Below, in pieces: positions 6-28,325 of a stretch of DNA of 32,000 nt (its first letter is position 1; each line of letters starts with the position of its first letter). Origin of the DNA: Candidatus Absconditicoccus praedator (GTDB taxonomy: Bacteria; Patescibacteriota; Gracilibacteria; Absconditabacterales; Absconditicoccaceae); assembly GCF_021057185.1 (NCBI RefSeq), contig NZ_CP054059.1, forward strand, positions 990,001 to 1,022,000. The letters are read 5' to 3'. A program made the position numbers and the translations under genes. The notes under the pieces were generated by a model. The model was not told where the DNA came from, searched no databases, and saw only the letters and a program-made list of their open reading frames with translations.

Positions 6-206
6 CTATTCAAACATCTTTTTTTTAATCAGAGAACTCAAAAGAGACCCTGTTACCACCAAACTAAAAATAAAACCACCTCCAAAAAAGTAAAGAATGA
101 AATAATCTTCATAGAGTATAAAACCAAGAGCTGCAAAATCTCCCAGGAACAAGGCCAGGATTCCAAACAAAACAATCCAGACCTTGTCTTCATCAAACTC
201 CATCAT
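6..206 (-). CDS. small membrane protein, 66 aa, two predicted TM helices (hypothetical)
   Basis: ATG at 206 with AGGAG at 214-218 (7-nt spacer) and TAG at 6-8. Peptide MMEFDEDKVWIVLFGILALFLGDFAALGFILYEDYFILYFFGGGFIFSLVVTG... All 7 Gly are GGN; there is no UGA codon. Confidence 0.5.
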   Translation of the reverse strand: MMEFDEDKVWIVLFGILALFLGDFAALGFILYEDYFILYFFGGGFIFSLVVTGSLLSSLIKKKMFE

Positions 207-278
207 AATATTTCTCCTATATTTGATTCCTTGATGGCAAATACAAATTAAATATTTATTATCTAATGTCAATACAAA

Positions 279-2366
279 ATGCAAGAAGAAGAAAGTATTA
301 CTATCCAAGAACCAAATTATATTGAACTGATAAGCAAAAACTTAAATATTGGTCAATGACAAGTACAAACCGTTTTGAATCTAACATCAGAATGAGCTAC
401 AGTACCTTTTATTTCTCGTTACAGAAAAGAGCAAACCAACAATCTGGACGAAAACCAAATAAGAGAAATCCTGGAACTTAGGAAAAAAGAAAAAAATCTA
501 CACCTTGCCAAGCAAAAAGCCATCAACTGAATCCATGAACAGTGAAAGCTAACCAATGATTTACAAGACAACATCCTAAACTGCCAAACTCTCAAAGAAG
601 TAGAAGAAATCTACAAACCCTACAAGTCCAAGAAAAAAACAAAAGCTATGATTGCTATAGAAAAATGATTTGAGCCTGTAGCCCATAACCTGCTCAACAA
701 CATCTTACAAATCCCTGATGAACTACTCCAACAATATGCCCAAGAAGAAATACTAGAATGAGCTGTACAGATTATAGCAAGCTGGATTAGTTCAAACTCA
801 CAGCTTAGACATAAACTGCTAAATACTCTATACTCATTAGGAAGCATATCATCATCATACAAATCAGAAAAAATGCTTGAAAAACTCAACCCAAAAGAAA
901 AATCTCAAATTCCCAAGTTTGAAATATACAAAAACTTCACAATCCAAATTTCAAAAATCAAACCTTATCAAACCCTAGCTCTCAACAGATGAGAAAGTCT
1001 AGGAATTTTGAATGTCAAAATCCTCAAAGATGAAGATATTTTTGCAAAAATACAAAAATACTACCTCAATTCTTTGGAAATAAAAAACCAACTCAATGAA
1101 TACCTACTTGAATGATTCAAAACCTGATACAATGCACTTTTTGAGTCTGTAGAAAGACAAATTAGGTCAGAGCTTACCGAAAAAGCTCACGATGAAGCAA
1201 TAGTTACTTTCCAGCAAAACCTCAAATCTTTGCTTATGACCAAACCACAATACTGACAAAAAATTCTTGCAATAGATCCTTGATTCAAGACTTGATGTAA
1301 AATCACCATACTGGACGAACTTGGAGATCCTCAAACTTTTGACAAAGTATATCTGGAACAAAAACAAGAAACAATCAACAAAATACTGGACCTTACCAAC
1401 AAATATAATATCCAAACTATAGTAATATGAAACTGAACCTGAAATGAAAAACTCCAGGAACTCATCAACAATGAATTTGAAGGTGATATCTATATTGTTA
1501 ATGAATCCGGTGCTTCGGTTTATTCTGTTTCCAAAACAGCCAAAGAAGAATTTCCAAATTACCAAGATGTTGATATCTGAACTATATCTATTGGAAGAAG
1601 GTTTATAGATCCACTGGCAGAACTTGTAAAAGTACCGGTAGGAAGTATATGAGTTGGGCTTTATCAACACGATATTCCTAACAAAAAACTAGAAGAAAAA
1701 CTAAATTATGTGGTAGAAGACTGTGTAAATAATGTTGGTATAAACATCAACACAGCTAGCATTCACTTACTAAATCACATATCCTGAATCAACAAAACTC
1801 AAGCCAAAAAAATCTTCAACAACAAACCTTATCAATCAAGACAAGAACTTCAAAAAATACTTGGACCCAAAGCATACCAACAAGCTATATGATTCCTAAG
1901 AGTTCCAGAAAGCAGTGAAACTCTGGACAACACCGATATCCATCCAGAACAATATCAGCTTGCAAAATATATAATATCCAACAACAAAACACAACCTGAT
2001 GACCAAATGCCAGAAATGTATCCTGATGTTACTCAAACAACAATTGATTTTATCCGAAAAGCTTATAAAAATATTGGGAATGACCCAAGAACTAATTTTG
2101 CTCACCAAAAAGCCCAACAACCAATCACTATAGAACAACTCAAAGAATGAGATATGCTACAAGGTATAGTAAGAAATGTAGTAGCTTTTGGAGCTTTTGT
2201 GGATGTTGGATTAAAGAATGACTGATTAGTGCATATTTCTGAACTTGCCAATGAATTTGTATCCAACCCTATGGATATAGTAAAAGTTGGTGATACTGTA
2301 GATGTCAAAGTAATATGAATAGATGAAGAAAATGGTAAAGTCCAGCTAAGTATGAAAGATAGCTAA
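279..2366 (+). CDS. tex: Tex-like transcription accessory protein (YqgF/RuvC-like, HhH and C-terminal S1 domains), 695 aa under table 25
   Basis: Uninterrupted from ATG 279 to TAA 2364-2366 when TGA=Gly. Hand translation gives ...EGATVPFISRYRKEQTNNLDE..., ILAIDPGFKTGCKI, VIGNGTGNEK, VGSIGVGLYQHD, and the S1 domain [30 protein letters not shown]. Several of these conserved Gly are TGA. Confidence 0.93.
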
Positions 2367-3913: not shown

Positions 3914-3943
3914 TTGACTTTTTGTAATAAAAACATATATATT
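3914..3943 (+). promoter_or_regulatory. sigma70-like promoter for the 65-aa ORF
   Basis: TTGACT at 3914-3919, an 18-nt spacer, TATATT at 3938-3943, about 45 nt upstream of ATG 3988. Confidence 0.4.
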
Positions 3944-3987
3944 TTATTGTTTAATTATTTGGAGTTCAAAAAAAAAGGAGTCTTTTT

Positions 3988-4185
3988 ATGAAAAGATGCT
4001 ATGATTGCAAACATTTCAAGCCTAACATGCATTTTGAAGATGATGAAATGCTGTTTGAGGCATATGGTGTATGTACTCGTTCAAATAGGTTTGTGTTCCA
4101 AGAAGTCCACATGAGCTGGGTGGAGGCTCTACTCAGAAGAAGATGTGGAAGAAAGAAAAGATACTTCCTACAAGTAAAAACCTAA
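3988..4185 (+). CDS. small Cys-rich protein, 65 aa (hypothetical, possible Zn-binding CxxC...C...C)
   Basis: Intact even in the standard code. AAGGAG at 3975-3980 with a 7-nt spacer; stop is TAA. Peptide MKRCYDCKHFKPN...GVCTRS...RRRCGRKK. No UGA codon. A perfect hairpin follows at 4193-4219. Confidence 0.6.
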   Translation: MKRCYDCKHFKPNMHFEDDEMLFEAYGVCTRSNRFVFQEVHMSWVEALLRRRCGRKKRYFLQVKT

Positions 4186-4192
4186 TAACAAA

Positions 4193-4219
4193 AAACCCTA
4201 GGGCATATCCCTAGGGTTT
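4193..4219. terminator. bidirectional intrinsic terminator (perfect 11-bp stem)
   Basis: aaaccctaggg (4193-4203), loop catat, ccctagggttt (4209-4219). It sits between the convergent 65-aa ORF (+) and the 92-aa Zn-ribbon ORF (-). Confidence 0.75.
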
Positions 4220-4249: not shown

Positions 4250-4528
4250 TTATTTTTTGATAGTTCATATCATTCATTGGTTGAGCTTATTCATATATTT
4301 TCAGCTAATTAGTTTAACTGTTGCTAACCTTCATCAACAATTTGGACAAAAAACATCAGTATTTTCAGGAAGTTCATTTATAAAAACTCAAGCACAATCT
4401 TCTGTTATTCTTTCTTTATTTATTTTGATTAGTCTTCAACTTCCTCCTTTTTTGTATTTTACAAGCTTTTGTCAACACTTACAATAAACAGTAAGCATTT
4501 TATATTTTGTAAGTTTTCTACCAGACAT
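4250..4528 (-). CDS. zinc-ribbon protein, 92 aa (hypothetical)
   Basis: ATG 4528, TAA 4250-4252, 279 nt. MSGRKLTKYKMLTVYCKCGQKLVKYKKGGSGRLIKINKERITEDCAGVFINELPENTDVFCPNCGGRLATVKL... has paired CxC and CxxC motifs. Contains several in-frame TGA=Gly. Confidence 0.55.
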
Positions 4529-10212: not shown

Positions 10213-10317
10213 CCAGATAATATTATATTATAAATTATTTTGAAAATAAATATTTTTTTCTAATCTTCTAGAAAAAATATTAAAAAAACAAAAAAAGCAA
10301 ATACAAATTAATCATTA

Positions 10318-10791
10318 TTAATTTTTTATCAACATATTTATAGAATAAAAAATGGGTTCTAGAAAAACTCCAGAACCCAGTCAAAATCATGAGGAAAAAC
10401 CTCTAAGCTTTCTTAATTCATCCCAGCTAATATATTCTATCCATTGAACTCCAAAACCCTGAACACCCAACAAAATTGGATATTCTTCAAAATTTGGGGA
10501 AGAATCTCCTAGATCAACAGCAAAAACTGCTATATCTCTAATTATACTATCTGGAAAGAGTTGGTTGATCTCCAAGAAACCAACATAACCTTCTGTTTCT
10601 TTGTACTTGAATATAGGTTTCACAATGCCTTTAAATAGTTCAGGAAAGACAACTTTTAAAAGTTTTTTATGTTTTCTACCAAATATTCTATAAAAATCGG
10701 TGTCTTGCATCAAGACTATCATGCTTCTACCAGATGAATGATCCAGCTTCACATAAAATATATCTTGACGATGTTCAGTTACAACACCCAT
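10318..10791 (-). CDS. hypothetical protein. The core is 134 aa (10390-10791) ending at TGA 10387-10389; table 25 read-through adds 23 aa up to TAA 10318-10320.
   Basis: ATG 10791 with GGAGG at 10801-10805 (9-nt spacer). MGVVTEHRQDIFYVKLDHSSGRSMIVLMQDTDFYRIFGRKHKK...GVQWIEYISWDELRKLRGFSS. All 11 Gly are GGN and there is no internal TGA. The ORF-track start at 10809 is a GTG. Confidence 0.6.
10345..10378 (-). terminator. intrinsic terminator 9 nt after the TGA of the 134-aa ORF
   Basis: On the - strand: GGGTTCTGGagtttttCTAGAACCC followed by ATTTTTT. Stem gggttct (10354-10360) pairs with agaaccc (10372-10378). Confidence 0.65.
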
Positions 10792-10921
10792 AAACCTGGA
10801 CCTCCACACTACAATTCAAGTAAAAGCAAGACGTAGTATATTCTTCTTAGAAAAAAAGTCAACCTTATTAAAAAATCCACAAGAGTAAAACAAATAATAT
10901 ATTTTTTAGGTTACAAATCTA

Positions 10922-17434: not shown

Positions 17435-17863
17435 ATGATAGAAATAATTACAAACCAGATATTAATTGCTACAGTTGTATCCACAGTACTTGCGCAAATA
17501 ATAAAAACAATTTTAGATGTGTTTCGCTTAAAAAAGTTTGAACGACAGTCTCTTTTCCGTGGAGCTTGAATGCCTTCATCACATACAGCAACTGTTGTTG
17601 CACTTGCATTATCAGTTTATCTTGTAGAATGAGCAAGCACTATTTTTATTGTTACACTAGTTTTTGCTTCTATTGTTATTCGTGATGTTATATGAGACAA
17701 AATATTTGCTACACATCAAGAAAATATTCTCAACAAAATAATAAAGGATATAGTAAAAACAAAAAAACTAAAACGAAACCACTTAATAGGACATTCTATA
17801 ATAGAAGTATTTTTCTGAATCATAGTATGAATAGTTTGAGTAACATTAGTTTTTGGATTCTAA
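17435..17863 (+). CDS. divergent PAP2 family membrane protein (YuiD/DUF212-like), 142 aa
   Basis: ATG 17435, TAA 17861-17863. ...SLFRGAGMPSSHTATVVALALSVYLVEG...GHSIIEVFFGIIVG... The GGMPSSH-type motif has one Gly encoded by TGA. Confidence 0.75.
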
Positions 17864-20532: not shown

Positions 20533-20837
20533 CAAAAAAATCAACAAAATTATTAAATTCATACAAACAGCCCTATATTGATAATTTAAAATAATATATT
20601 ATGATAGAAGATAAAAATTATATACAAAAACTTGTAGAACAAAAAGACATTGAATGACTTAAAAGGGAATGGCAAACTATTGTCAATATAAAATCACAAA
20701 TAGTCGATGCTTTATCAACTTGTTCAAAAAGGAGACAAAAAGATTTTAAAACCTTAGAAGAGCTTGAAAAAAAGCAAAGACAAATTACTCAAGCTCTGAA
20801 TGAACTTGAACCAAAATCAAAAACTAGTCATTAACAA
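20533..20837 (+). repeat. direct repeat, copy 1 (about 305 bp; core 20613-20837)
   Basis: The 225-bp core matches 25709-25933 with 4 mismatches and no indel (offset 5096 bp). The upstream 22-mer caaaaaaatcaacaaaattatt (20533-20554) recurs at 25633-25654. The stretch between is more diverged, with a 4-nt length difference. Confidence 0.9.
20601..20834 (+). CDS. small helical protein, 77 aa (hypothetical), intact copy
   Basis: ATG 20601, TAA 20832-20834. [77 protein letters not shown]. Confidence 0.6.
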
Positions 20838-21022: not shown

Positions 21023-21919
21023 TTATACTATTCACTCATTTAGTCTTCTAAGCAACAAACTTGTTTCTTCTCTTTCCTTTTTTTCTCCTTCTAATCTTTC
21101 TTCTCTTGCTTGTTCTACTTCTTCTAATTTTTGAATTGCTGATTCATAAAGTTCTTTTGAAATAGTTCATGCTGGTATTTCTATATGGTTTCATCTTGGG
21201 TATTCTATAGTTCATCAGTGAAAGTATGCATCCAGTTCTTCTCTTGTGACAGGGTCTTGTCGATAATTGTACCTATCATCTCATATCTGGTCTAATAAGT
21301 TTTCTTTGGCTGTATTAAACTCATCTTCATATTTATCTTCTGGGATTGAATCTTCACGTCTTATTATATCTCTCACCCTTGCTATTCATCTACTATTAAA
21401 CAACTCTATTCAATGATAACTTAAATCATCCACATTATCCAACTGTGCCTTCATTGTAACAAACTGTATAGTATCCCAAGCTTCTACAAATTCTGCACTA
21501 AATATATCTATCTCTCTTCATTTCTCTCATTCTGTTTTTGTACTAAGATCTCAACTTTCATCCAACTTTCTTCTTTCTGAAGATTCAAATATTCTTAGAT
21601 CTCAATCCTCAAATTCTATTTTGTATCAAGCAGCTTTTGCTGAAACTGTATATCGTTCTATTGTTTTATCTCTCACTCAATCTCTTAAATCTACATGGAT
21701 CTGATACTCTAAATCCATGCTAAATATAGATAAAGGATGGTTTGTATCTTTTTTGTATACCAAAAATCTATCGTCTGCTATCTCTTCCACTCATACATTA
21801 TCTATATCATATCAGTCTCTTTCAAGTCAGGCTGATAGTATTTCTTCATTCCTTTCCAAAAATTCAGCTTCTCTTTCTTGTCCTTGTTGCTCTATTTTAT
21901 TATCCATTTTTTCATTCAT
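21023..21919 (-). CDS. acidic hypothetical protein, 298 aa (third gene of the orphan operon)
   Basis: ATG 21919, TAA 21023-21025, 897 nt, checked codon by codon. MNEKMDNKIEQQGQEREAEFLERNEEILSAGLERDGYDIDNVGVEEIADDRFLVYKKDTNHPLSIFSMDLEYQIHVDLRDG... It starts 12 nt after the stop of the 1094-aa gene. Confidence 0.65.
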
Positions 21920-21931
21920 TTTTAACTAATT

Positions 21932-24900
21932 TTATCAAGGTAAATATTTTTCTATAAAATCTTCACTGGTTTCCTCTTCAGGTAGTCTCTCTCTAAGCTG
22001 TTCAAGTACAACATTCCTAAAATACTCACTTCACAATCCATCTATATCATAGATATGTTTTTGATCTTTTTTCTCTATAAGAGCCTGCTCGAATAGTCTC
22101 TTCATCCTAGACTTCTCTTGATTTAATTTAATAATGATTTCTTCATAATTATCAACGCTTTCTGGGCCTATCATATTAAGTAATCTTTCTTCAAAAATCT
22201 GGTCTATTATTCTTTTCCCTTCATCTCTAAACTCTCATGTGCTTATCTCTTCATTCTCTGCTTTCTCTACTAAATTTTCAAATCTACTATCAAGCTGGCC
22301 TTCTTCTCATTGATTTCATTCAAAATTATTCATTACACTTTCTAATGTAATTCCAGTAGTTAGTATACTTGTAGGTATTGTTCACCTTGCACTTAGTGTA
22401 GACAATGATCCTCAATAATCTGAATTTATAGCTCTTGTGGTTCATCTACCCATAAAAGCACCCAGTCATACTTTATCTGAAAAATCATTAAATCTCCTCA
22501 TTAAGTCACTAACTTCATCTGGAGATCTTGCTCTTCATCAATAAAACAATGCTACAATAAGGTTTGAAACAACTTCTTGAGTTAAATTTTCAGCACTCAT
22601 ATCTAACTCACCTTGAGAAAATCCATCTATTCCCATTGATATTCCCATTAAAGATGTAGCATCCATTGCTACTTCCCTTGATCTACTCATATCATCTCTA
22701 AATCTCATTCTTCTAGTAGCACCAAGATATCCAAATTGTGTCATAAATGTTAGTAAGCCTTCGGATACACCTTCACCATAAGGATTTTCAAAACTTTCCC
22801 CACTTAATGCACTATCTGTAACTTCCTCTCAAAGTAAATATCAAAAATGAAATGGAATAGCTTCACCTGCTCATCTTGCTCATCTTAAAGCATGTCATCA
22901 CATACTACTGCTATTATTTATCATAGCTCTAGCTCTTAGTCATCATCTAACATTTAAAACTCTTGCTCCACCTCTTGCTAACAAATATGAACCTCTAGCA
23001 GCTAATGCAACAGCTCATAATCATACAGCTGAAGCAGCTACTGTTATAGCTAATTCTCTTGCAACAATTGCTATTGCCTCTTTTTGAGTGTCTGACAAGT
23101 TGAATCGTCATATACCTTCAATATCTCAATACATTTCAAGTAAAGGATTGTCTCAATTATATCCACCACTACGATTAGAATTATTTTCAATTATCTCTTC
23201 AACAATAGCAGATTGTATTCATTTTTGTATAAATTCTTTACCTAAGTAATCTGACATATTATCAACTATCATATCCATATTTTCTTCCAAAAATCTTTTT
23301 CTTTCATCCTCTTCTGAGCTAAGATCTTCTTTATTTCTTAACTCTTCTAATTCTTCTTCTAATTCATTTCTTTGTGCTTCAATTAATCTTTCTCTGTCAT
23401 CAAAAGACTCTTGGATTTGTTCAAAAAATTCTCTTGCTTTTGTACTTGAATATTCTCAATTTTCATCATTAAAAAGTCACATTTGCATAAGTTTGAACAT
23501 CATAGTATTTTCTCATTCAGGTATACTATCTGCAAACTTTCAAGTTCTACTATCTACTCATTTTTCTTCTATCATTTTATCATATCTATCTACTTGAGGA
23601 GATGGTCACTGTGCTGAACTAATGGGTCTTTCAGGAACAAGTTCTCAGCTATCAGAAAATGTTTCTAAAGATTCATTAAATTCAGCAATAAGTCTATCTA
23701 TTCATTTTTCTCATACATAATCTATAAAATTATTAATTTCATCTTCTGATGGAATTTGTTCTAGATTTAATGGTATATAATCATCATATTCATTTAATGC
23801 ATCAGGATTTTCTAATATATACTCTGATATTTGTTCACTAAAATTTTCTCAGTCCAATCACAATTCTCTGATTGTTTCAAATGTTTTGATATATTTATCA
23901 TGTCATATATATTCATTGTCAAAAAAGTCTTTTACAATCTTTCTATCATCAAAAATTCTATCTAATCTTTCTCTTACCTCAGGGTCATCTGTGTCTACAA
24001 CACCAGTATGTTGCTCGTTTTCTATATCAAGGTTTTCATCGAAAATTTCTTCTATTACAACATCTCTTATTTCATCTAATCAGCTTTCAATTTTATCAAA
24101 AACATCTTCTTCCCAATTTATATCTCTTAGATAAGGATTCATTCTTGATGTCCTATCATTTGTCAATGTTTGAGATTTTATCAAACTATCAGACATGCTT
24201 TCAAAGATCTCATTTATTCTTTGAAAATTTTCATCATCTTGATTTAAAAATCTTGATCACTCTTCTATATTTTCTTCCAAAGCTTCCAAAAATATAGATA
24301 TTGTATCTACTTTTTCATTTATTCTTTCAGCTTTCTCATAAGTTTCTCTAAATTCATCACTTTCTACATATTCTCTTTGGGCTTCATAATTTTGCATCAT
24401 ATCCAACACTCAAGCAATAGGTTGATATTGTTCATTTGCAGACAAAAAATCATCTATAGAATCATATCATTGTGCTTCTTCTAAAATATCACTTAAATTC
24501 TCTCTATGTTTTTCTCAATCATATTGAAATTCAACTTTTCAGTCTGTCATATCCATATCTAGCACTCTATCAGTATTTTGTAGTTGCTCATAGTTTTCTT
24601 TTATTCATGGATAAGCATCTACATCTACACCATTGTGTTCAGCTATTTCTTCCCAACTTACTCACCTATATACAAGCTCCAAAATACTTATATAAATATC
24701 TTCTCAATCATGTCATTCATATTTCAACATTATCTCTCAAGTATCTGAAATTTTGAATAAATCACTTTGTTCAGGATTTATTTCTATTGATTCTCAAGCT
24801 TGTATCTGATCTGGACTTTGTAGTTGTGAGTTTGATTCCAAAATATCTTGCATATCAACTCAATGATCATCTGCAATTTTAGACAACACATCTCATGGTA

Positions 24901-25216
24901 ATATATCATATTGTATTATACCATCCAAATGTTCTTCTATGGAAGAGACAATATTATCTACCATATCTTTATTACTTTCTATGTTTTTACCTAATTCTAA
25001 AGACTCAATAACTAATTCTATAAAAGCATACTGTAAAGCTTCTTTTTCATACTCTTCAAGATCTTCACTATCAGACACCTGTTCCAAATGTTGCTCAGAT
25101 TTTTCTACAACATAAGAAACAAGTTCTTGCTTACTTTCATATTCAAGATTATCTTTTATATCTTCTGTATTTTCTTTTTCCTCTATTCTCCACATTGTGA
25201 AACTTTCAATGGACAT
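21932..25216 (-). CDS. giant acidic LysM-domain protein with central hydrophobic/Gly-Arg-rich segments, 1094 aa (hypothetical)
   Basis: ATG 25216, TAA 21932-21934, 3285 nt. Every codon was checked and there is no in-frame TAA or TAG, with dozens of TGA. LysM-like YDILPGDVLSKIADDHGVDMQDILESNSQLQSPDQIQAGESIEINP lies at about 24773-24910. The hydrophobic AIAIVARELAITVAASAVGLGAVALAA lies at about 22990-23077. A TGA-dense stretch VRGGLRARAM..MGGHALRGARGAG lies at about 22865-22951. Confidence 0.75.
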
Positions 25217-25218
25217 TT

Positions 25219-25470
25219 TTATAGATTATCCAGTAAAGATTCTGCCTCTTTTACTTCTTCTTGATATTCTTTTTCTTCTTTTTTCTTTTTTATTTTATTT
25301 TTTTGGTTTTGTAATAATAATCAAATTTTATCTTTTAAATTTGGATCTTTTTCCAAAGATTTTTTTACCAAAACTTTTTTAAATTCTTCTAATTGATCTA
25401 TAGTGTTAATTATTTTTTCTCTTTTATCTTCTGAAAATCTATCCCACTGAGAGATCAACTTTTTTTTCAT
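25219..25470 (-). CDS. small lysine-rich helical protein, 83 aa (first gene of the orphan operon)
   Basis: ATG 25470, TAA 25219-25221. MKKKLISQWDRFSEDKREKIINTIDQLEEFKKVLVKKSLEKDPNLKDKIGLLLQNQKNKIKKKKEEKEYQEEVKEAESLLDNL. Its stop is 2 nt from the ATG of the 1094-aa gene. Confidence 0.55.
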
Positions 25471-25632
25471 GCTCTGCCTCAAAAATAGGGATTTTTTGAT
25501 TTTATTTATATTTTCTTGGTTTCAACAACTCATAAAAAATTATGACAGCCTAAATACATAATAAATTATATCAGTTTTTTTATAAAATGCAAATTTGATT
25601 AATTACTAAAATAAGATTTTACAATACATATT

Positions 25633-25933
25633 CAAAAAAATCAACAAAATTATTTTATATGTACCCAAAATAATTTTATTGATTATCTAAAAATGATATT
25701 AATGAAAAAAAAATTATATACAAAAACTTGTAGAACAAAAAGACATTGAATGACTTAAAAGGGAATGACAAACTATTGTCAATATAAAATCACAAATAGT
25801 CGATGCTTTATCAACTTGTTCAAAAAGGAGACAAAAAGATTTTAAAACCTTAGAAGAGCTTGAAAATAAGCAAAGACAAATTACTCAAGCTCTGAATGAA
25901 CTCGAACCAAAATCAAAAACTAGTTATTAACAA
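25633..25933 (+). repeat. direct repeat, copy 2 (about 301 bp; core 25709-25933)
   Basis: See copy 1. Mismatches fall at 25768 (TGG>TGA), 25867 (AAA>AAT), 25903 (synonymous) and 25925 (CAT>TAT). Confidence 0.9.
25702..25930 (+). pseudogene. second copy of the 77-aa gene, out of frame with its ATG because of an A9 tract (pseudogene or phase-variable)
   Basis: The conserved frame runs from 25712 to TAA 25928-25930 but is closed upstream by TAA at 25700-25702. The ATGs at 25693 and 25702 are in the +1 frame. ATG 25702 is followed by 9 A (25705-25713), and removing one A gives MKKNYIQKLVEQ... in frame. Confidence 0.6.
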
Positions 25934-27563
25934 AATGCAGGTAAACTCAAGCATAATTTTCCACTCATACAACTTTTAACTCCTCTCAATCATCCAAAAT
26001 CAAACTTCAAGTATCAGAAGTCTGACCACCCGATTCTGCATAAAAAGGCGTTTTATCCAAAACTACTACTCTTTGTCAGTCTACTTCAAAATCTTTTAAA
26101 ACACTACTATCTTGAGTTTCCAAAGTATCATATCCAACAAATTTAGTGGCAGGAATTCAATGCAAATACTTCGCCCAGTCTATTCATCTTTTGAATACAT
26201 CTTTTGTTCACTCACGAGATCTTTCTCTGGCTTTTTCCATTTCTTTTTCAAATCAACACAAGTCCACAGCAAGTCAATTATCTGTAGCTATCTCCTTGGT
26301 AAGTTCTACAGGAAAACCATATGTATCATACAAAAGAAAAATATTTTTTCACTCAATCTCTTTTGAAGAATTTTTCATTATTTCATTCAATTTCTGCCTT
26401 CAATTATTTATTGTTTTTTGGAATTGAGATATTTCGTTTAGGATAGAAGAAACTATTGATTCTGTATTATTAGAAATTTCAATATAGTAAGTTCAATATT
26501 TCTTATTAATTTGATCAACCAGGTTTTTCACAAAATCATCCAATTTTGCATTTTCATCAAGAGAAATTACCGAATAATACAGCCTTCTAATCAGTCTCCT
26601 AAGCACATATCCCCTACCCTCATTACTTGCAATTACTCAGTCTCATATCATAAAAACAGCTGTCCTTATATGATCTGCTATTATTCTAAAATGTTTTGTA
26701 GTATTGTTTTCCTTATCAGAAAAATCATTTTCATGTTTTTCAAATGGAGGATATTTTTTGTCTACCAAATCTTGTATAGCAAGCATTATAAACTCAAAAA
26801 GATCACACTCAAAAACTGTTTGTTGTCATTGCAAAATCATTGCCAGTCTTTCCAATCACATACCTGTATCTACATTTTGTTGAGAAAGTTTGGAAAAAGT
26901 TCAGTCTTCATTTTTGTAAAATTCCATAAACACATTATTCCAAACCTCCAAAAATCTATCATTTTCTCACATATCCCAATCATTTGGCCCCCACTCTTCT
27001 CATCTATCAATATGAATTTCTGCACAAGGCCCACATGGACCTATCTCTCAAGCAGGACCTCGGAAGTTATCTTCCATTCAAATAGCTTTAATTCTTTGGT
27101 CAGGAATTCATATTTCATTAAGAATTTTTCTAGCCTCAGTATCTTCTCATATTCACAAACTTTCATCACCAGCAAAAATTGTAACCCCTATTTTTTCCAT
27201 GGGAACTCATATATACTCATTCAAGAACCTGATAGACCATGTCAAAGATTCTTTTTTGAAGTAATCACCCAAAGACCAATTCCCTAGCATCTCAAAAAAT
27301 GTAAGATGTCTTTCATCACCAACTTCATCTATATCTCAAGTTCTTAATGATTTTTGCGTATTATAAAGTCTTTTTCATTGAGGATGAGGTTTTCATACAA
27401 GATAAGGCACAAGTTGTTGCATTCCTGCAGTAGTAAACAACACAGTTTTGTCTTGGCTATCTGGTACTAGTGAAGCATATTTTAGATAAGTATGATTTCT
27501 ATCTGGATCTTGCCAAAACTCATCCCAAAGTTTTCTAATTTCTTCTGAGGTTAATTTTTTCAT
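25920..27563 (-). CDS. alaS: alanyl-tRNA synthetase, catalytic and tRNA-recognition part only (547 aa); editing and C-Ala domains absent
   Basis: ATG 27563, TAG 25920-25922, 1644 nt. [118 protein letters not shown]. It ends ...GVYLHFVNN*, with the final codons lying inside repeat copy 2. Confidence 0.88.
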
Positions 27564-27675
27564 AAAACTTTTTCTTTGATATAAATTCAAACTTTAATAT
27601 AAATAATTAACAAATCAAATCAAGTTTTTATATAAAACAAAAAAAATACAAAATTTTAAATTATCCAAAAATAAA

Positions 27676-27708
27676 TTAAAAACCCGGTTCATGCTTTCAT
27701 GAACCAGG
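27676..27708 (-). terminator. intrinsic terminator after the 175-aa ORF
   Basis: On the - strand: CCTGGTTCATGaaagCATGAACCGGG followed by TTTTT. The stem spans 27683-27693 and 27698-27708 with one mismatch. Confidence 0.7.
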
Positions 27709-27720
27709 TATATATCCAAC

Positions 27721-28248
27721 CTATGAATGACAATCAATAAAATCTTCGGTAAACCTCCAATATTCATAACTTAAAGCCATAGGATTCTTGGTAAGAGTAT
27801 AATCCAAAACATGCGTTAGACCATTCTCACCTCCCACAGCAACAATATCTCCTCTTCTCAATTCCAAAAGATCCTCAAACCACAATTCTTTTCTGGGACC
27901 AATCACCCAAGTATTAACCAATTGTCTTGGAAAACCATTTAGAGCTGTCCAATAAGTTTGGCTTTGGTCAGGTAAATAAGTATTTATAGCAACCAAAATT
28001 TTGGAAGAAGATTTATTTGGATCTGCAAGCCTATACAAGTCATGCAAACATTGCCTTACCAATACAGGAAAGGCATTTGTCACCAAACCTTTTTCAATTT
28101 TTGGGGGATTTTTAGTAAAGAATCTGATATTTTGAAATCTACTATTTCTCCCCTTCCTACCAAGTCGTACATGATAACCATTTTTCTGGTCTTGACATAC
28201 AGGAATTCCTTTTTGCAAATAACCTTGTTTAAAATGGTAACACTGCAT
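27721..28248 (-). CDS. hypothetical protein, 175 aa, with atypical codon usage (no UGA)
   Basis: Intact in the standard code. ATG 28248 with AAGGA at 28256-28260 (7-nt spacer) and TAG at 27721-27723. MQCYHFKQGYLQKGIPVCQDQKNGYHVRLGRKGRNSRF...RRGDIVAVGGENGLTHVLDYTL...FIDCHS. All 12 Gly are GGN. Local GC is about 38-40% on two 60-nt lines I counted. Confidence 0.7.
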   Translation of the reverse strand: MQCYHFKQGYLQKGIPVCQDQKNGYHVRLGRKGRNSRFQNIRFFTKNPPKIEKGLVTNAFPVLVRQCLHDLYRLADPNKSSSKILVAINTYLPDQSQTYWTALNGFPRQLVNTWVIGPRKELWFEDLLELRRGDIVAVGGENGLTHVLDYTLTKNPMALSYEYWRFTEDFIDCHS

Positions 28249-28325
28249 GTTTCTGTCCTTTTTTATTATCAGACTTTGTGAATATACTTATTTGAAAAAT
28301 ATTATCAAGAAAAGTTTACTAAAAA

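What the first reader, a model, noticed from the sequence alone, without database searches (positions are those of the whole stretch)
27676..28265. UGA-free, SD-bearing, GC-richer 175-aa ORF: one of four genes that look foreign to this code
This ORF is intact in the standard code, and all 12 of its Gly use GGN. Neighbouring native genes use TGA for most Gly; for example, the glyA stretch SEGYPGKRYYGG uses TGA for 3 of its 4 Gly.

Other differences from the native genes:
- It has an AAGGA Shine-Dalgarno motif 7 nt upstream of the ATG, whereas nearly all native genes here have none.
- It is about 38-40% GC, against about 30-32% on native lines I counted.
- It is followed by a GC-rich hairpin terminator.

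The same syndrome, at least for the missing UGA and the SD motif, recurs at 6-218, 3961-4219 and 10318-10809. Taken together, the four ORFs have 32 Gly codons and none is UGA.

These are either recent acquisitions from standard-code donors such as a host bacterium, phage or plasmid, or a native gene class under different translational constraints. The product has no family I can name. The motif GDIVAVGG..THV...DCHS faintly suggests a papain-like or NlpC-type hydrolase, but I cannot support that.
Basis: partly seen in the sequence, partly recalled or inferred. Interest (0 to 1): 0.66.

Follow-up and report, generated by a model that had tools for sequence, protein, structure and literature searches.

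The report
Code-neutral gene cassette in SR1 bacterium
In a bacterium that reads the stop codon UGA as glycine, this small gene of unknown function never uses UGA and carries ribosome-binding and terminator signals that its neighbours lack, so it reads the same in the standard and the altered code and probably comes from a standard-code gene pool.

Summary
The window comes from an Absconditabacterales (SR1) genome that reads UGA as Gly; 66% of native Gly codons are TGA. The ORF lies on the minus strand (27721-28248, 175 aa). It has 0 TGA among 12 Gly codons (P~2e-6). It has its own sigma70-like promoter, an AAGGA SD, a TAG stop and a 12-bp hairpin terminator. None of 22 native genes has an SD.

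It is a real gene. pN/pS is 0.21 against a 98.6%-identical strain. It belongs to an unannotated family (~50 representatives) with a confident AF2 model (pLDDT 95, all-beta) that has no PDB counterpart.

Three results revise the 'recent import' reading:
- Non-Gly codon usage is fully native-like, and GC is 35%, not 38-40%.
- The closest homolog (36% id) sits in a second UGA=Gly genome and is also UGA-free with an SD-like motif.
- The sibling ORF 10390-10791 ends on TGA, with a terminator 7 nt later. That layout only makes sense in the standard code.

Best reading: a resident accessory cassette drawn from a standard-code or code-neutral gene pool. The protein's function is unknown. The NlpC/papain idea is not supported.

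The parts
28281..28308 (-). sigma70-like promoter TTGATA-16-TATATT upstream of the target ORF. It begins 18 nt after the ychF stop.
   Evidence: 10 of 12 matches. This is a consensus match only; such matches are as frequent in shuffled sequence, so it is suggestive, not proof.
28256..28260 (-). Shine-Dalgarno-like AAGGA, 7 nt (CAGAAAC) before the ATG
   Evidence: No native gene in the window has an SD core.
27721..28248 (-). Target ORF: 175 codons plus a TAG stop; 0 TGA, 12 GGN. It encodes a member of an unannotated all-beta protein family.
27672..27709 (-). Intrinsic terminator: 12-bp stem, 4-nt loop and a T-run, 11 nt after the stop codon
   Evidence: -18.8 kcal/mol, z = -6.1.
10390..10791 (-). 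Sibling cassette ORF10387: 134 codons, 0 TGA, 11 GGN, with GGAGG at 10801-10805 and a promoter-like site at 10862->10835
   Evidence: An orphan in the word-indexed protein search.
10343..10389 (-). TGA at 10387-10389, the stop in the standard-code reading, followed 7 nt later by a 12-bp (scan; 11-bp in the MFE fold) terminator hairpin (10379->10353) and a T-run. In code 25 the frame reads through the hairpin to TAA at 10318-10320.
   Evidence: -16.9 kcal/mol, z = -5.4.
3914..4219 (+). Sibling cassette ORF3988: promoter-like site 3914-3943, AGGAG 3976-3980, 65-codon ORF 3988-4185 (TAA stop, 0 TGA, 2 GGN), and an 11-bp hairpin at 4193-4219 shared with the convergent native gene 4250-4528
   Evidence: Codon usage is less native-like (z = -4.1). 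The product's exact sequence is not in the protein collection, so its status as a gene is unproven.
6..218 (-). Sibling cassette ORF6: AGGAG at 214-218 and a 66-codon ORF at 6-206 (TAG stop, 0 TGA, 7 GGN). From its sequence it looks like a small protein with two hydrophobic segments.
   Evidence: Its 3' signals lie outside the window.

Best explanation
The ORF is a functional, self-contained, single-gene cassette: promoter, SD, 175 codons, TAG stop, hairpin terminator. It sits between the native genes ychF and alaS of an SR1 (Absconditabacterales) chromosome that reads UGA as Gly.

The cassette contains no in-frame UGA and stops on UAG, so it gives the same protein in code 11 and in code 25. 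It carries standard bacterial expression signals (an SD and a strong intrinsic terminator) that the host's own genes lack.

The most likely history is horizontal acquisition from a standard-code, or deliberately code-neutral, gene pool that repeatedly seeds UGA=Gly genomes. That pool could be mobile elements, code-11-compatible phages, or neighbouring or host bacteria. Acquisition was followed by residence as an accessory gene under purifying selection.

The protein is a cytoplasmic member of an uncharacterised family with a new all-beta fold. The conserved residues are almost all Gly, Pro, Leu, Trp and Ala, with no conserved catalytic set. I therefore infer a binding or scaffold role, possibly in inter-genome conflict, rather than an enzyme.

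Shown: the anatomy, the UGA depletion, family membership, purifying selection, and the replicate in a second genome.
Inferred: the direction and vehicle of transfer, whether UGA avoidance is still under selection, and the protein's role.
For: Real gene:
- pN/pS = 0.21 (4 nonsynonymous, 5 synonymous changes) against the 98.6%-identical strain contig L001.
- 49 family representatives at E<1e-3, with alignments starting at residue 1 and invariant M1, G14, G30, P48, L127.
- The AF2 model built on the family alignment has pLDDT 95 and pTM 0.89.

UGA depletion is specific:
- 0 of 12 Gly codons are TGA, against 66% in native genes (P = 2e-6).
- The native ratio of TGA to GGA is 6:1, yet the target has 3 GGA and 0 TGA.

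Standard-code anatomy:
- An SD precedes only the four odd ORFs (Fisher 7e-5).
- The three strongest hairpin terminators in the 32 kb all sit 7-11 nt after the stops of odd ORFs.
- The sibling ORF10387 uses TGA as its stop with a terminator right behind it. Read in code 25, the frame runs through the hairpin and past the T-run.

Replicate:
- The closest homolog, P0002 (36% id), lies at a different locus in a second UGA=Gly genome, L089, where native genes are 44% TGA and UGA aligns to Gly in AtpD.
- P0002 is also UGA-free (0 of 15), is preceded by GAGGG and is followed by what reads as a hairpin terminator (by eye, not scanned).
- It sits next to a second UGA-free gene (0 of 16) with a GAGGAGG SD.

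Family context elsewhere:
- Other members lie on contigs where TGA is never in frame.
- On low-GC, SD-poor contigs they are GC-rich, SD-bearing outliers. Examples: L005 at 51% against 36-41% GC with AAGGAGG; L097 at 49% against 31-33% with AAGGAGG; an island in L095/96.

Lineage background:
- SR1 genomes are reported as SD-scarce (2-7% of genes) and lacking the CCUCC anti-SD core (PMC10783764).
- SR1 relatives fetched here have 0-1 SD genes per locus.

Precedent:
- TGA-free, code-11-compatible phages are predicted to infect Absconditabacteria and Gracilibacteria (PMC10746230).
Against: - No mobility hallmarks flank the target: no integrase, no tRNA, no convincing flanking repeats.
- No relative was found in GenBank phages, PLSDB plasmids or IMG/VR. 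These searches see only fairly close relatives.
- Non-Gly codon usage is fully native-like (z = -0.8), and the gene co-diverges with ychF. If imported, it came either long ago or from a donor of nearly identical composition. With long residence, neutral drift should already have produced some TGA, which points to selection (rival 1) or to an AT-rich reservoir.
- The genome's own 16S anti-SD could not be inspected.
- Only 32 kb of a 1.13-Mb genome was seen, so the size of the class genome-wide is unknown.
- The protein's function is not established by any homology or fold match.
Confidence: 0.55

Rival explanations
1. A native SR1 gene class is kept UGA-free by selection inside SR1. These would be genes that must stay translatable when UGA decoding is compromised, for example when tRNA-Gly(UCA) is limiting or under attack, or when a standard-code phage brings in RF2-like termination to shut off host translation. 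Such 'shut-off-proof' accessory or defence genes might also use a separate, SD-dependent initiation route.
For: - Codon usage is fully native apart from Gly.
- The gene has been resident since the two strains diverged and is under purifying selection.
- Two homologs at 36% identity in two code-25 genomes are both UGA-free, which suggests persistent avoidance rather than recent arrival.
- Code-11-compatible phages of this lineage are reported (PMC10746230), so a conflict over the genetic code is plausible.
Against: - It does not explain why sibling ORF10387 has TGA exactly where a stop is expected, 7 nt before a terminator.
- It does not explain why the family is widespread on contigs where TGA is never in frame and is a compositional, SD-bearing outlier there.
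- SR1 16S is reported to lack the anti-SD core, so an internal SD-dependent route is doubtful.
- The class is nearly absent from about 115 kb of other SR1 genomes.
- No PADLOC defence model matches.
Confidence: 0.2
2. Simple recent horizontal transfer from an AT-rich standard-code bacterium. The missing UGA, the SD and the terminator would be unselected relics that will decay.
For: - Any gene arriving from a code-11 donor is UGA-free by construction.
- The SD, the terminator and the TGA stop of ORF10387 fit a donor layout.
- ORF6 and ORF3988 have less native-like codon usage (z = -2.8 and -4.1).
- An AT-rich donor would give similar codon usage.
Against: - The target's codon usage is 95% of the way from uniform to native usage, and its GGN preferences mirror native ones.
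- Its synonymous divergence between strains equals that of ychF, so it is not brand new.
- The same family is UGA-free in a second code-25 genome at only 36% identity and at a different locus. This would require two independent recent events from related donors.
- No named bacterial donor appears among the homologs.
Confidence: 0.15
3. The cassettes are meant to be expressed in a standard-code, SD-using cell. That cell could be the bacterial host or prey of the epibiotic SR1 cell after DNA delivery, or other hosts of a broad-host-range element that shuttles between codes.
For: - Every signal (sigma70-like promoter, SD, a TGA or UAG stop, an intrinsic terminator) suits an ordinary bacterium rather than SR1.
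- SR1 reportedly lacks the anti-SD core.
- Relatives of this lineage are predatory or parasitic epibionts (PMC8080830, seen).
- The second UGA-free gene in L089 has a signal peptide and a glycine-zipper segment. Its match to the Pfam glycine-zipper 2TM model is weak (E = 0.2). My own knowledge associates such proteins with Gram-negative envelopes.
Against: - There is no delivery machinery, border repeat or transfer origin near any cassette.
- The cassettes are scattered singly among housekeeping genes.
- There is no precedent for bacterium-to-bacterium delivery of effector genes.
- The target is equally readable in SR1 itself.
Confidence: 0.06
4. Chance, a non-coding region, or an assembly chimera.
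For: Small ORFs with SD-like motifs can arise by chance. ORF3988 has only 2 Gly.
Against: - P~2e-6 for the target, and about 1e-15 for the class.
- There is no Rfam or tRNA hit.
- The same locus appears in three independent assemblies: L001, L087, and an NCBI contig of 1.13 Mb.
- There is a conserved family, a confident fold, and pN/pS of 0.21.
Confidence: 0.02

Closest known systems
Code-11-compatible (TGA-free) phages predicted to infect Absconditabacteria and Gracilibacteria (Liu, Jaffe, Chen, Bor, Banfield 2023, mBio; PMC10746230)
   Same: [quoted passage not shown]
- TGA is sometimes used as a stop, with another stop further on; ORF10387 has TGA and then TAA 23 codons later.
- The proposed rationale is movement between hosts with different codes.
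   Different: - Those are free phage genomes linked to hosts through CRISPR spacers. That paper reports that ALL integrated prophages in these lineages are densely UGA-coded.
- Here the UGA-free genes are single chromosomal cassettes among housekeeping genes.
- They have no phage hallmark genes nearby and no match in phage collections.
- They carry an SD in an SD-less host.
Ordinary horizontally acquired islets or ORFan accessory genes recognised by atypical composition
   Same: - Patchy distribution.
- Insertion between conserved genes.
- Its own promoter and terminator.
- Family members elsewhere are GC-rich outliers.
   Different: - Here the base composition and codon usage are native-like.
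- The 'foreign' marks are categorical instead: the codon table, the SD, and the choice of stop codon.
- There is no integrase, tRNA or flanking repeat.
SD-containing special genes in SD-blind lineages (for example the prfB frameshift site in Bacteroidia; PMC10798248, abstract seen)
   Same: A few genes retain SD-like sequences in a lineage whose ribosomes generally ignore SD.
   Different: - Those are conserved core genes that use the SD in a regulatory role.
- Here the SD-bearing genes are non-core orphans that also avoid UGA.
Uncharacterised protein of Sulfolobus islandicus rod-shaped virus 11 (BFVD A0A1X9SKG1)
   Same: This is the only fold match of any note: TM 0.49/0.47 over 195 columns, probability 0.96. 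Both proteins are about 180 aa and all-beta.
   Different: - E = 0.11, 13% identity, TM below 0.5.
- It is itself uncharacterised, so it gives no functional inference.
- There is no PDB counterpart; the best TM-score is about 0.2.
Agrobacterium T-DNA genes (from my own knowledge, as an analogy for the novel reading only)
   Same: Genes in one organism's genome that carry the expression signals of a different recipient cell.
   Different: No transfer borders or secretion system are seen, and no evidence of delivery exists. This is purely an analogy.

Membership tests
Unannotated 'MKCYTF...LGE.GRGRRYEKV...NP.EV...PGD.I.V' family (no Pfam, NCBIfam or PHROG model) | Significant full-length sequence similarity, with alignments starting at Met1 | tested here: met
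   49 representatives at E<1e-3 (P0002 at 1e-23; 5 at <1e-10), with alignments covering residues 1 to about 145-175; the profile recovers the target at 3e-47.
Unannotated 'MKCYTF...' family | Family-invariant residues present (M1, G14, G30, P48, L127; near-invariant L29, A59, L74, G98, W100, D125) | tested here: met
   All residues are numbered on the target sequence.
Unannotated 'MKCYTF...' family | Shared fold supported by family covariation | tested here: met
   pLDDT 95 and pTM 0.89 with the 39-sequence alignment, against pLDDT 37 for the single sequence.
   No Pfam, NCBIfam or PDB-sequence hit for the target or for 9 relatives.
Papain-like / NlpC-P60 hydrolase | Conserved catalytic Cys and His in an alpha+beta fold | tested here: not met
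   - The predicted fold is all-beta with one C-terminal helix.
- C173/H174 and T145-H146-V147 are not conserved in the alignment.
- C3 is frequent but is replaced by Thr or Ala in members.
- No fold match to any hydrolase.
Code-11-compatible phage genes of SR1/Gracilibacteria (PMC10746230) | No in-frame TGA; stop codon usable in both codes | tested here: met
   0 TGA in 175 codons, TAG stop.
Code-11-compatible phage genes of SR1/Gracilibacteria | Located on a phage genome or prophage with hallmark genes (terminase, portal, tail, integrase) | tested here: not met
   The flanks are ychF and alaS. There is no PHROG hit and no relative in GenBank phages or IMG/VR.
Code-11-compatible phage genes of SR1/Gracilibacteria | Targeted by CRISPR spacers of the host lineage | not testable with these tools
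   No spacer database is at hand, and the window contains no CRISPR array.
Classical genomic island / integrated mobile element | Integrase or transposase, tRNA attachment site, flanking direct repeats | tested here: not met
   There are no tRNAs, no repeat pair brackets 27670-28310, and the insert holds a single gene.
Classical genomic island / integrated mobile element | Atypical base composition or codon usage | tested here: inconclusive
   GC is in the top 1.1% of windows, but this comes from amino-acid composition. Synonymous usage is native-like (z = -0.8).
Hint / intein-like module (weak lead from relative P0002) | Pfam Hint match above threshold | tested here: not met
   P0002 scores E = 0.068 and 13 bits against a cutoff of 29.7. 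The target has no hit.
Known anti-phage defence proteins (PADLOC) | Match to a defence-system model | tested here: not met
   none for the target or 8 relatives. P0017 has only chance-level hits.

The most novel reading that the evidence does not exclude
The SR1 chromosome holds a dispersed set of small cassettes built for a different translation system from its own: sigma70-like promoter, SD, a UGA-free ORF or TGA used as a stop, and an intrinsic terminator. They would be kept that way by selection because they are expressed in standard-code cells. Either they are delivered into the epibiont's bacterial host or prey, a bacterial analogue of T-DNA, or they belong to a gene pool that continuously shuttles across the genetic-code boundary. 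This would be a natural breach of a 'genetic-code firewall'.
Probability: 0.07. Interest if true: 0.9.

Novelty: new variant of a known kind. Interest (0 to 1): 0.58.

Why it matters
Stop-codon reassignment is widely discussed as a barrier to gene flow and viral infection. Here, inside a UGA=Gly genome, there is a small and statistically sharp class of chromosomal genes that read the same in both codes and keep standard-code punctuation. One of them still uses TGA as its stop, directly ahead of a terminator.

The same protein family shows the same signature in a second recoded genome. That gives a concrete, testable handle on three questions:
- How genes cross a code boundary.
- How long the 'foreign punctuation' (UGA avoidance, SD) persists, or is selected for, after codon usage has otherwise equilibrated.
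- Whether UGA-free genes have a special role in SR1 biology, such as phage conflict or host interaction.

It also flags an uncharacterised protein family of about 50 clusters with a confidently predicted fold that has no PDB counterpart.

Practically, UGA/Gly fraction plus SD presence is a simple detector of cross-code imports in code-25 (and by extension code-4) genomes. It also warns annotators that ORF10318, currently read through UGA as 157 aa, is probably a 134-aa standard-code gene.

Tried and rejected
- Structured RNA instead of a gene: no Rfam or tRNA hit, and the coding evidence is strong.
- Family assignment by Pfam, PHROGs, NCBIfam, PADLOC and PDB sequence, for the target, the family profile and 10 relatives including long forms: nothing.
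- Single-sequence AF2: useless, pLDDT 37.
- Fold search: no PDB analogue. Only a marginal match to an uncharacterised rudivirus protein.
- Synteny test through YchF in 80 genomes: SR1 relatives share only ychF itself, at 59-64% identity. The test is therefore uninformative about the ancestral state of the locus.
- Phage or plasmid reservoir: GenBank phages, PLSDB and IMG/VR were all negative. The first profile scan failed for lack of a conserved stretch.
- Operon-partner search in 12 family contexts: no consistent neighbour. A TrmB-type regulator recurs within 1-9 kb in 4 contexts, but this may simply reflect the host lineage.
- 'ORF6 has a paralog': rejected. P0068 is the same ORF with another start.
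- 'The window is SR1 Aalborg_AAW-1': rejected. That genome is 1.045 Mb, against a 1.13-Mb contig here.
- Higher divergence of the ORF than its flanks between strains: not significant (P = 0.19).
- Family-wide avoidance of TGA stops (9 of 10 use TAA or TAG): too few cases to be significant.
- ORF10318 homologs: none at word-index sensitivity.
Full report
WHAT THE WINDOW IS. Standard-code ORFs are short everywhere. Reading TGA as sense raises the total length of ORFs of at least 100 aa about five-fold. TGA occurs at glycine-like frequency: 369 TGA against 189 GGN in 22 native genes. TGA aligns to Gly in 44 of 48 positions of YchF against four standard-code orthologs. The GlyA motif SEGYPGKRYYGG uses TGA for 3 of its 4 Gly. 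The nearest genomes by YchF are SR1/Absconditabacterales MAGs at 59-64% identity. The window is part of a 1,129,696-bp NCBI contig. It is not Aalborg_AAW-1.

THE OBSERVATION. The ORF lies on the minus strand at 27721-28248: ATG start, 175 codons, TAG stop.
- It has 12 Gly codons (GGT 8, GGA 3, GGG 1) and no TGA. P = 2.3e-6 at the native TGA fraction of 0.66. It is still 2e-4 at the lowest per-gene fraction among the native genes scored, 0.50.
- AAGGA sits 7 nt before the ATG.
- A sigma70-like TTGATA-16-TATATT lies at 28308->28281. It is a consensus match only.
- A 12-bp hairpin with a T-run starts 11 nt after the stop (-18.8 kcal/mol, z = -6.1).
- None of the 22 native genes has an SD core in its upstream 25 nt; all four odd ORFs do (Fisher 7e-5).
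- GC is 35.3%, not 38-40%. That is still in the top 1.1% of 528-nt windows (mean 29.1%). The excess is mostly at codon position 2: the protein has more Arg, Pro, Trp, Cys and His and fewer Ile, Glu and Lys.

The other three loci also hold up:
- ORF6 (6-206, minus strand): 0 of 7 Gly codons are TGA.
- ORF3988 (3988-4185, plus strand): 0 of 2, which is not significant alone.
- ORF 10390-10791 (minus strand): 0 of 11.

IT IS A REAL GENE IN A REAL FAMILY.
- There is no Rfam or tRNA signal.
- The locus appears in independent assemblies. L087 and L088 are 100% identical to the window. L001 is 98.6% identical.
- Against L001 the ORF has 5 synonymous and 4 nonsynonymous changes (pN/pS 0.21). Its pS of 0.046 is similar to that of the adjacent ychF 3' end, 0.06. 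The gene is therefore under purifying selection and was already present when the strains split.
- The word-indexed protein search found only the strain variant. The exhaustive HMMER scan found 49 cluster representatives at E<1e-3. Most are 176-200 aa. Some are 475-833 aa with two tandem copies of the module and long C-terminal extensions.
- Alignments start at Met1. M1, G14, G30, P48 and L127 are invariant.
- No member hits Pfam, PHROGs, NCBIfam, PADLOC or PDB sequences.
- With the family alignment AF2 gives pLDDT 95 and pTM 0.89: about 15 beta strands and one C-terminal helix.
- Foldseek finds no PDB analogue (TM about 0.2). It finds only a marginal match to an uncharacterised rudivirus protein (TM 0.49).
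- Conserved positions are almost all Gly, Pro, Leu, Trp and Ala, with no conserved Cys/His/Ser/Lys set. I therefore infer a binding or scaffold protein rather than an enzyme. The NlpC/papain idea fails.

THREE RESULTS THAT CHANGE THE INTERPRETATION.

(i) Codon usage. I modelled native synonymous usage and scored each gene on all degenerate amino acids except Gly. The target is indistinguishable from native genes: z = -0.8, 95% of the way from uniform to native. Its GGN preferences also mirror native ones. The only anomaly is the missing TGA. Native TGA:GGA is 6:1, yet the target has 3 GGA and 0 TGA. ORF10387 is similar (z = -1.5). ORF6 and ORF3988 are less native-like (z = -2.8 and -4.1). A 'recent import from a compositionally foreign donor' is therefore not what the target looks like.

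(ii) A replicate.
- The closest homolog, P0002 (36% id), shares subfamily-specific C-terminal motifs with the target.
- It lies on L089, a 13-kb contig of a different UGA=Gly genome: native TGA fraction 0.44, UGA aligned to Gly in AtpD, and obg, ndk, L31, atpD and yidC as neighbours.
- L089 comes from the same metagenome as L001.
- At an unrelated locus, P0002 is again UGA-free (0 of 15, P = 1.6e-4), GC-richer than its neighbours, preceded by GAGGG, and followed by what reads as a hairpin terminator (by eye, not scanned).
- The next gene is also UGA-free (0 of 16) with a GAGGAGG SD. It has a signal peptide and a glycine-zipper segment, with only a weak Pfam match (E = 0.2).
- About 115 kb from eight other SR1 genomes shows no such class.

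(iii) A standard-code stop.
- In ORF10387 the first in-frame TGA (10387-10389) is followed 7 nt later by a 12-bp terminator hairpin (12 pairs by the scan, 11 in the MFE fold) and a T-run (10379->10353; -16.9 kcal/mol, z = -5.4).
- The target and ORF3988 have the same stop-then-hairpin spacing: 11 and 7 nt.
- These are the three strongest terminators in the whole window.
- Read in code 25, as NCBI does to give 157 aa, the frame passes through the hairpin and reaches TAA only about 30 nt beyond the T-run.
- That layout makes sense only if TGA was this gene's stop codon.

FAMILY CONTEXT ELSEWHERE.
- On contigs where TGA is never in frame, members sit as lone genes in cellular neighbourhoods: an F-ATPase operon; PHP, DEAD helicase, Tmk and ArgRS; Csx3, HD and TrmB.
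- On low-GC, SD-poor contigs the member is a GC-rich, SD-bearing outlier. Examples are L005 (51% against 36-41% GC, AAGGAGG), L097 (49% against 31-33%, AAGGAGG) and a GC-rich SD-bearing islet in L095/96.
- Neighbours are mostly unannotated.
- No member was found in GenBank phages, PLSDB plasmids or IMG/VR.

LITERATURE.
- SR1 genomes are listed as 'SD-scarce', with 2-7% of genes carrying an SD and no conserved CCUCC anti-SD core (PMC10783764).
- The clade often lacks bS21 (PMC9297842).
- Liu et al. 2023 (PMC10746230) describe TGA-free, code-11-compatible phages predicted to infect Absconditabacteria and Gracilibacteria. They argue that code neutrality broadens host range. They also report that all integrated prophages are densely UGA-coded.
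- In my searches I found no report of isolated chromosomal UGA-free, SD-bearing cassettes.

SYNTHESIS. The target is a resident, selected accessory gene whose coding and punctuation are those of a standard-code, SD-using system. It is one of at least three or four such cassettes in 32 kb. The best-supported account (about 0.55) is horizontal acquisition from a standard-code or code-neutral gene pool that repeatedly seeds UGA=Gly genomes. The reservoir must either have nearly the same AT-rich composition, for example elements co-evolving with these hosts, or the genes are still under selection to stay UGA-free.

The main rival (about 0.2) is an SR1-internal reason to keep some genes UGA-free, such as translation that is robust when UGA decoding is attacked or limiting. 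That rival does not explain the TGA-stop-plus-terminator layout or the family's outlier status elsewhere. Plain recent HGT with neutral relics (about 0.15) fits ORF6 and ORF3988 better than it fits the target. The most novel reading (about 0.07) is that the cassettes are expressed in standard-code partner cells.

The protein's function remains unknown. I commit only to a non-enzymatic beta-rich binding module of an accessory, possibly conflict-related, gene family, and this is inference.

LIMITS.
- Only 32 kb of the genome was seen.
- The genome's 16S was not available.
- The promoter calls are consensus matches at background frequency.
- The strain comparison rests on 9 substitutions.
- The viral and plasmid searches detect only fairly close relatives.

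Noticed in passing
window 20613-20837 and 25709-25933: A 225-nt direct repeat (98% identical). Each copy carries a terminator-like hairpin (20811->20787, 25907->25883), and the second copy overlaps the last 14 nt of alaS. The repeat brackets three very acidic, UGA-rich hypothetical genes (21023-25533, including a 1094-aa protein). An independent assembly (L087) breaks inside the repeat. This may be an integrated or duplicated code-25 segment.
   Followed up: partly
window 10318-10791 (-): The protein collection's NCBI-sourced record for this ORF is a 157-aa product read through two UGAs, and a Logan gene call holds it as UGA=Trp. The TGA-then-terminator layout suggests the ancestral product is 134 aa. 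In SR1 the ribosome would read into the terminator, giving a possible non-stop transcript. An ATG overlaps the TGA (ATGA) and opens a 36-aa ORF at 10280-10390, preceded by GAGG.
   Followed up: partly
window 279-2366 (+), tex: The Tex gene uses UGA normally (22 of 39 Gly) yet has strongly deviant synonymous codon usage relative to the other native genes (leave-one-out z = -11.5). The 1094-aa acidic protein at 21932-25216 deviates the other way (z = +5.1).
   Followed up: no
window 25920-27563 (-), alaS: Alanyl-tRNA synthetase is only 547 aa. The only Pfam family on record is tRNA-synt_2c, and it seems to lack the usual C-terminal editing/C-Ala part.
   Followed up: no
L089 6535-7068 (= L091 839-1372): This is the second UGA-free (0 of 16 Gly), GAGGAGG-preceded gene next to the target's homolog in another code-25 genome. 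It has a signal peptide plus a glycine-zipper-like segment (Pfam Rick_17kDa_Anti, only E = 0.2). I associate that protein type with Gram-negative envelopes.
   Followed up: partly
L005 9296-9853; L097 232-2292; L095 8261-12187: On low-GC, SD-poor standard-code contigs the family member, or a small islet around it, is 10-17 GC points richer than its neighbours and carries strong AAGGAGG/GGAGG SDs. L005 has no TGA stops in 11 genes, and L002 has only 2 in 14 at 50% GC.
   Followed up: partly
L002 1337-2098; L095 7326-8099; L093 878-1666; contig of P0055: A TrmB-family regulator of about 255 aa recurs within 1-9 kb of family members in four independent contexts. This could be a marker of the host lineage or a loose functional link.
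   Followed up: no
L013 5557-5829 (+): A 90-aa ORF with 0 TGA among 4 Gly codons and 39.6% GC, in a 28.6% GC SR1 genome whose native TGA fraction is 0.72. It has no SD. This is the only comparable outlier in about 115 kb of other SR1 loci.
   Followed up: no
window 17435-17863 (+): A native DUF212 gene (142 aa, 6 UGA) that my first gene list missed. It was found through the gene calls on L088.
   Followed up: yes
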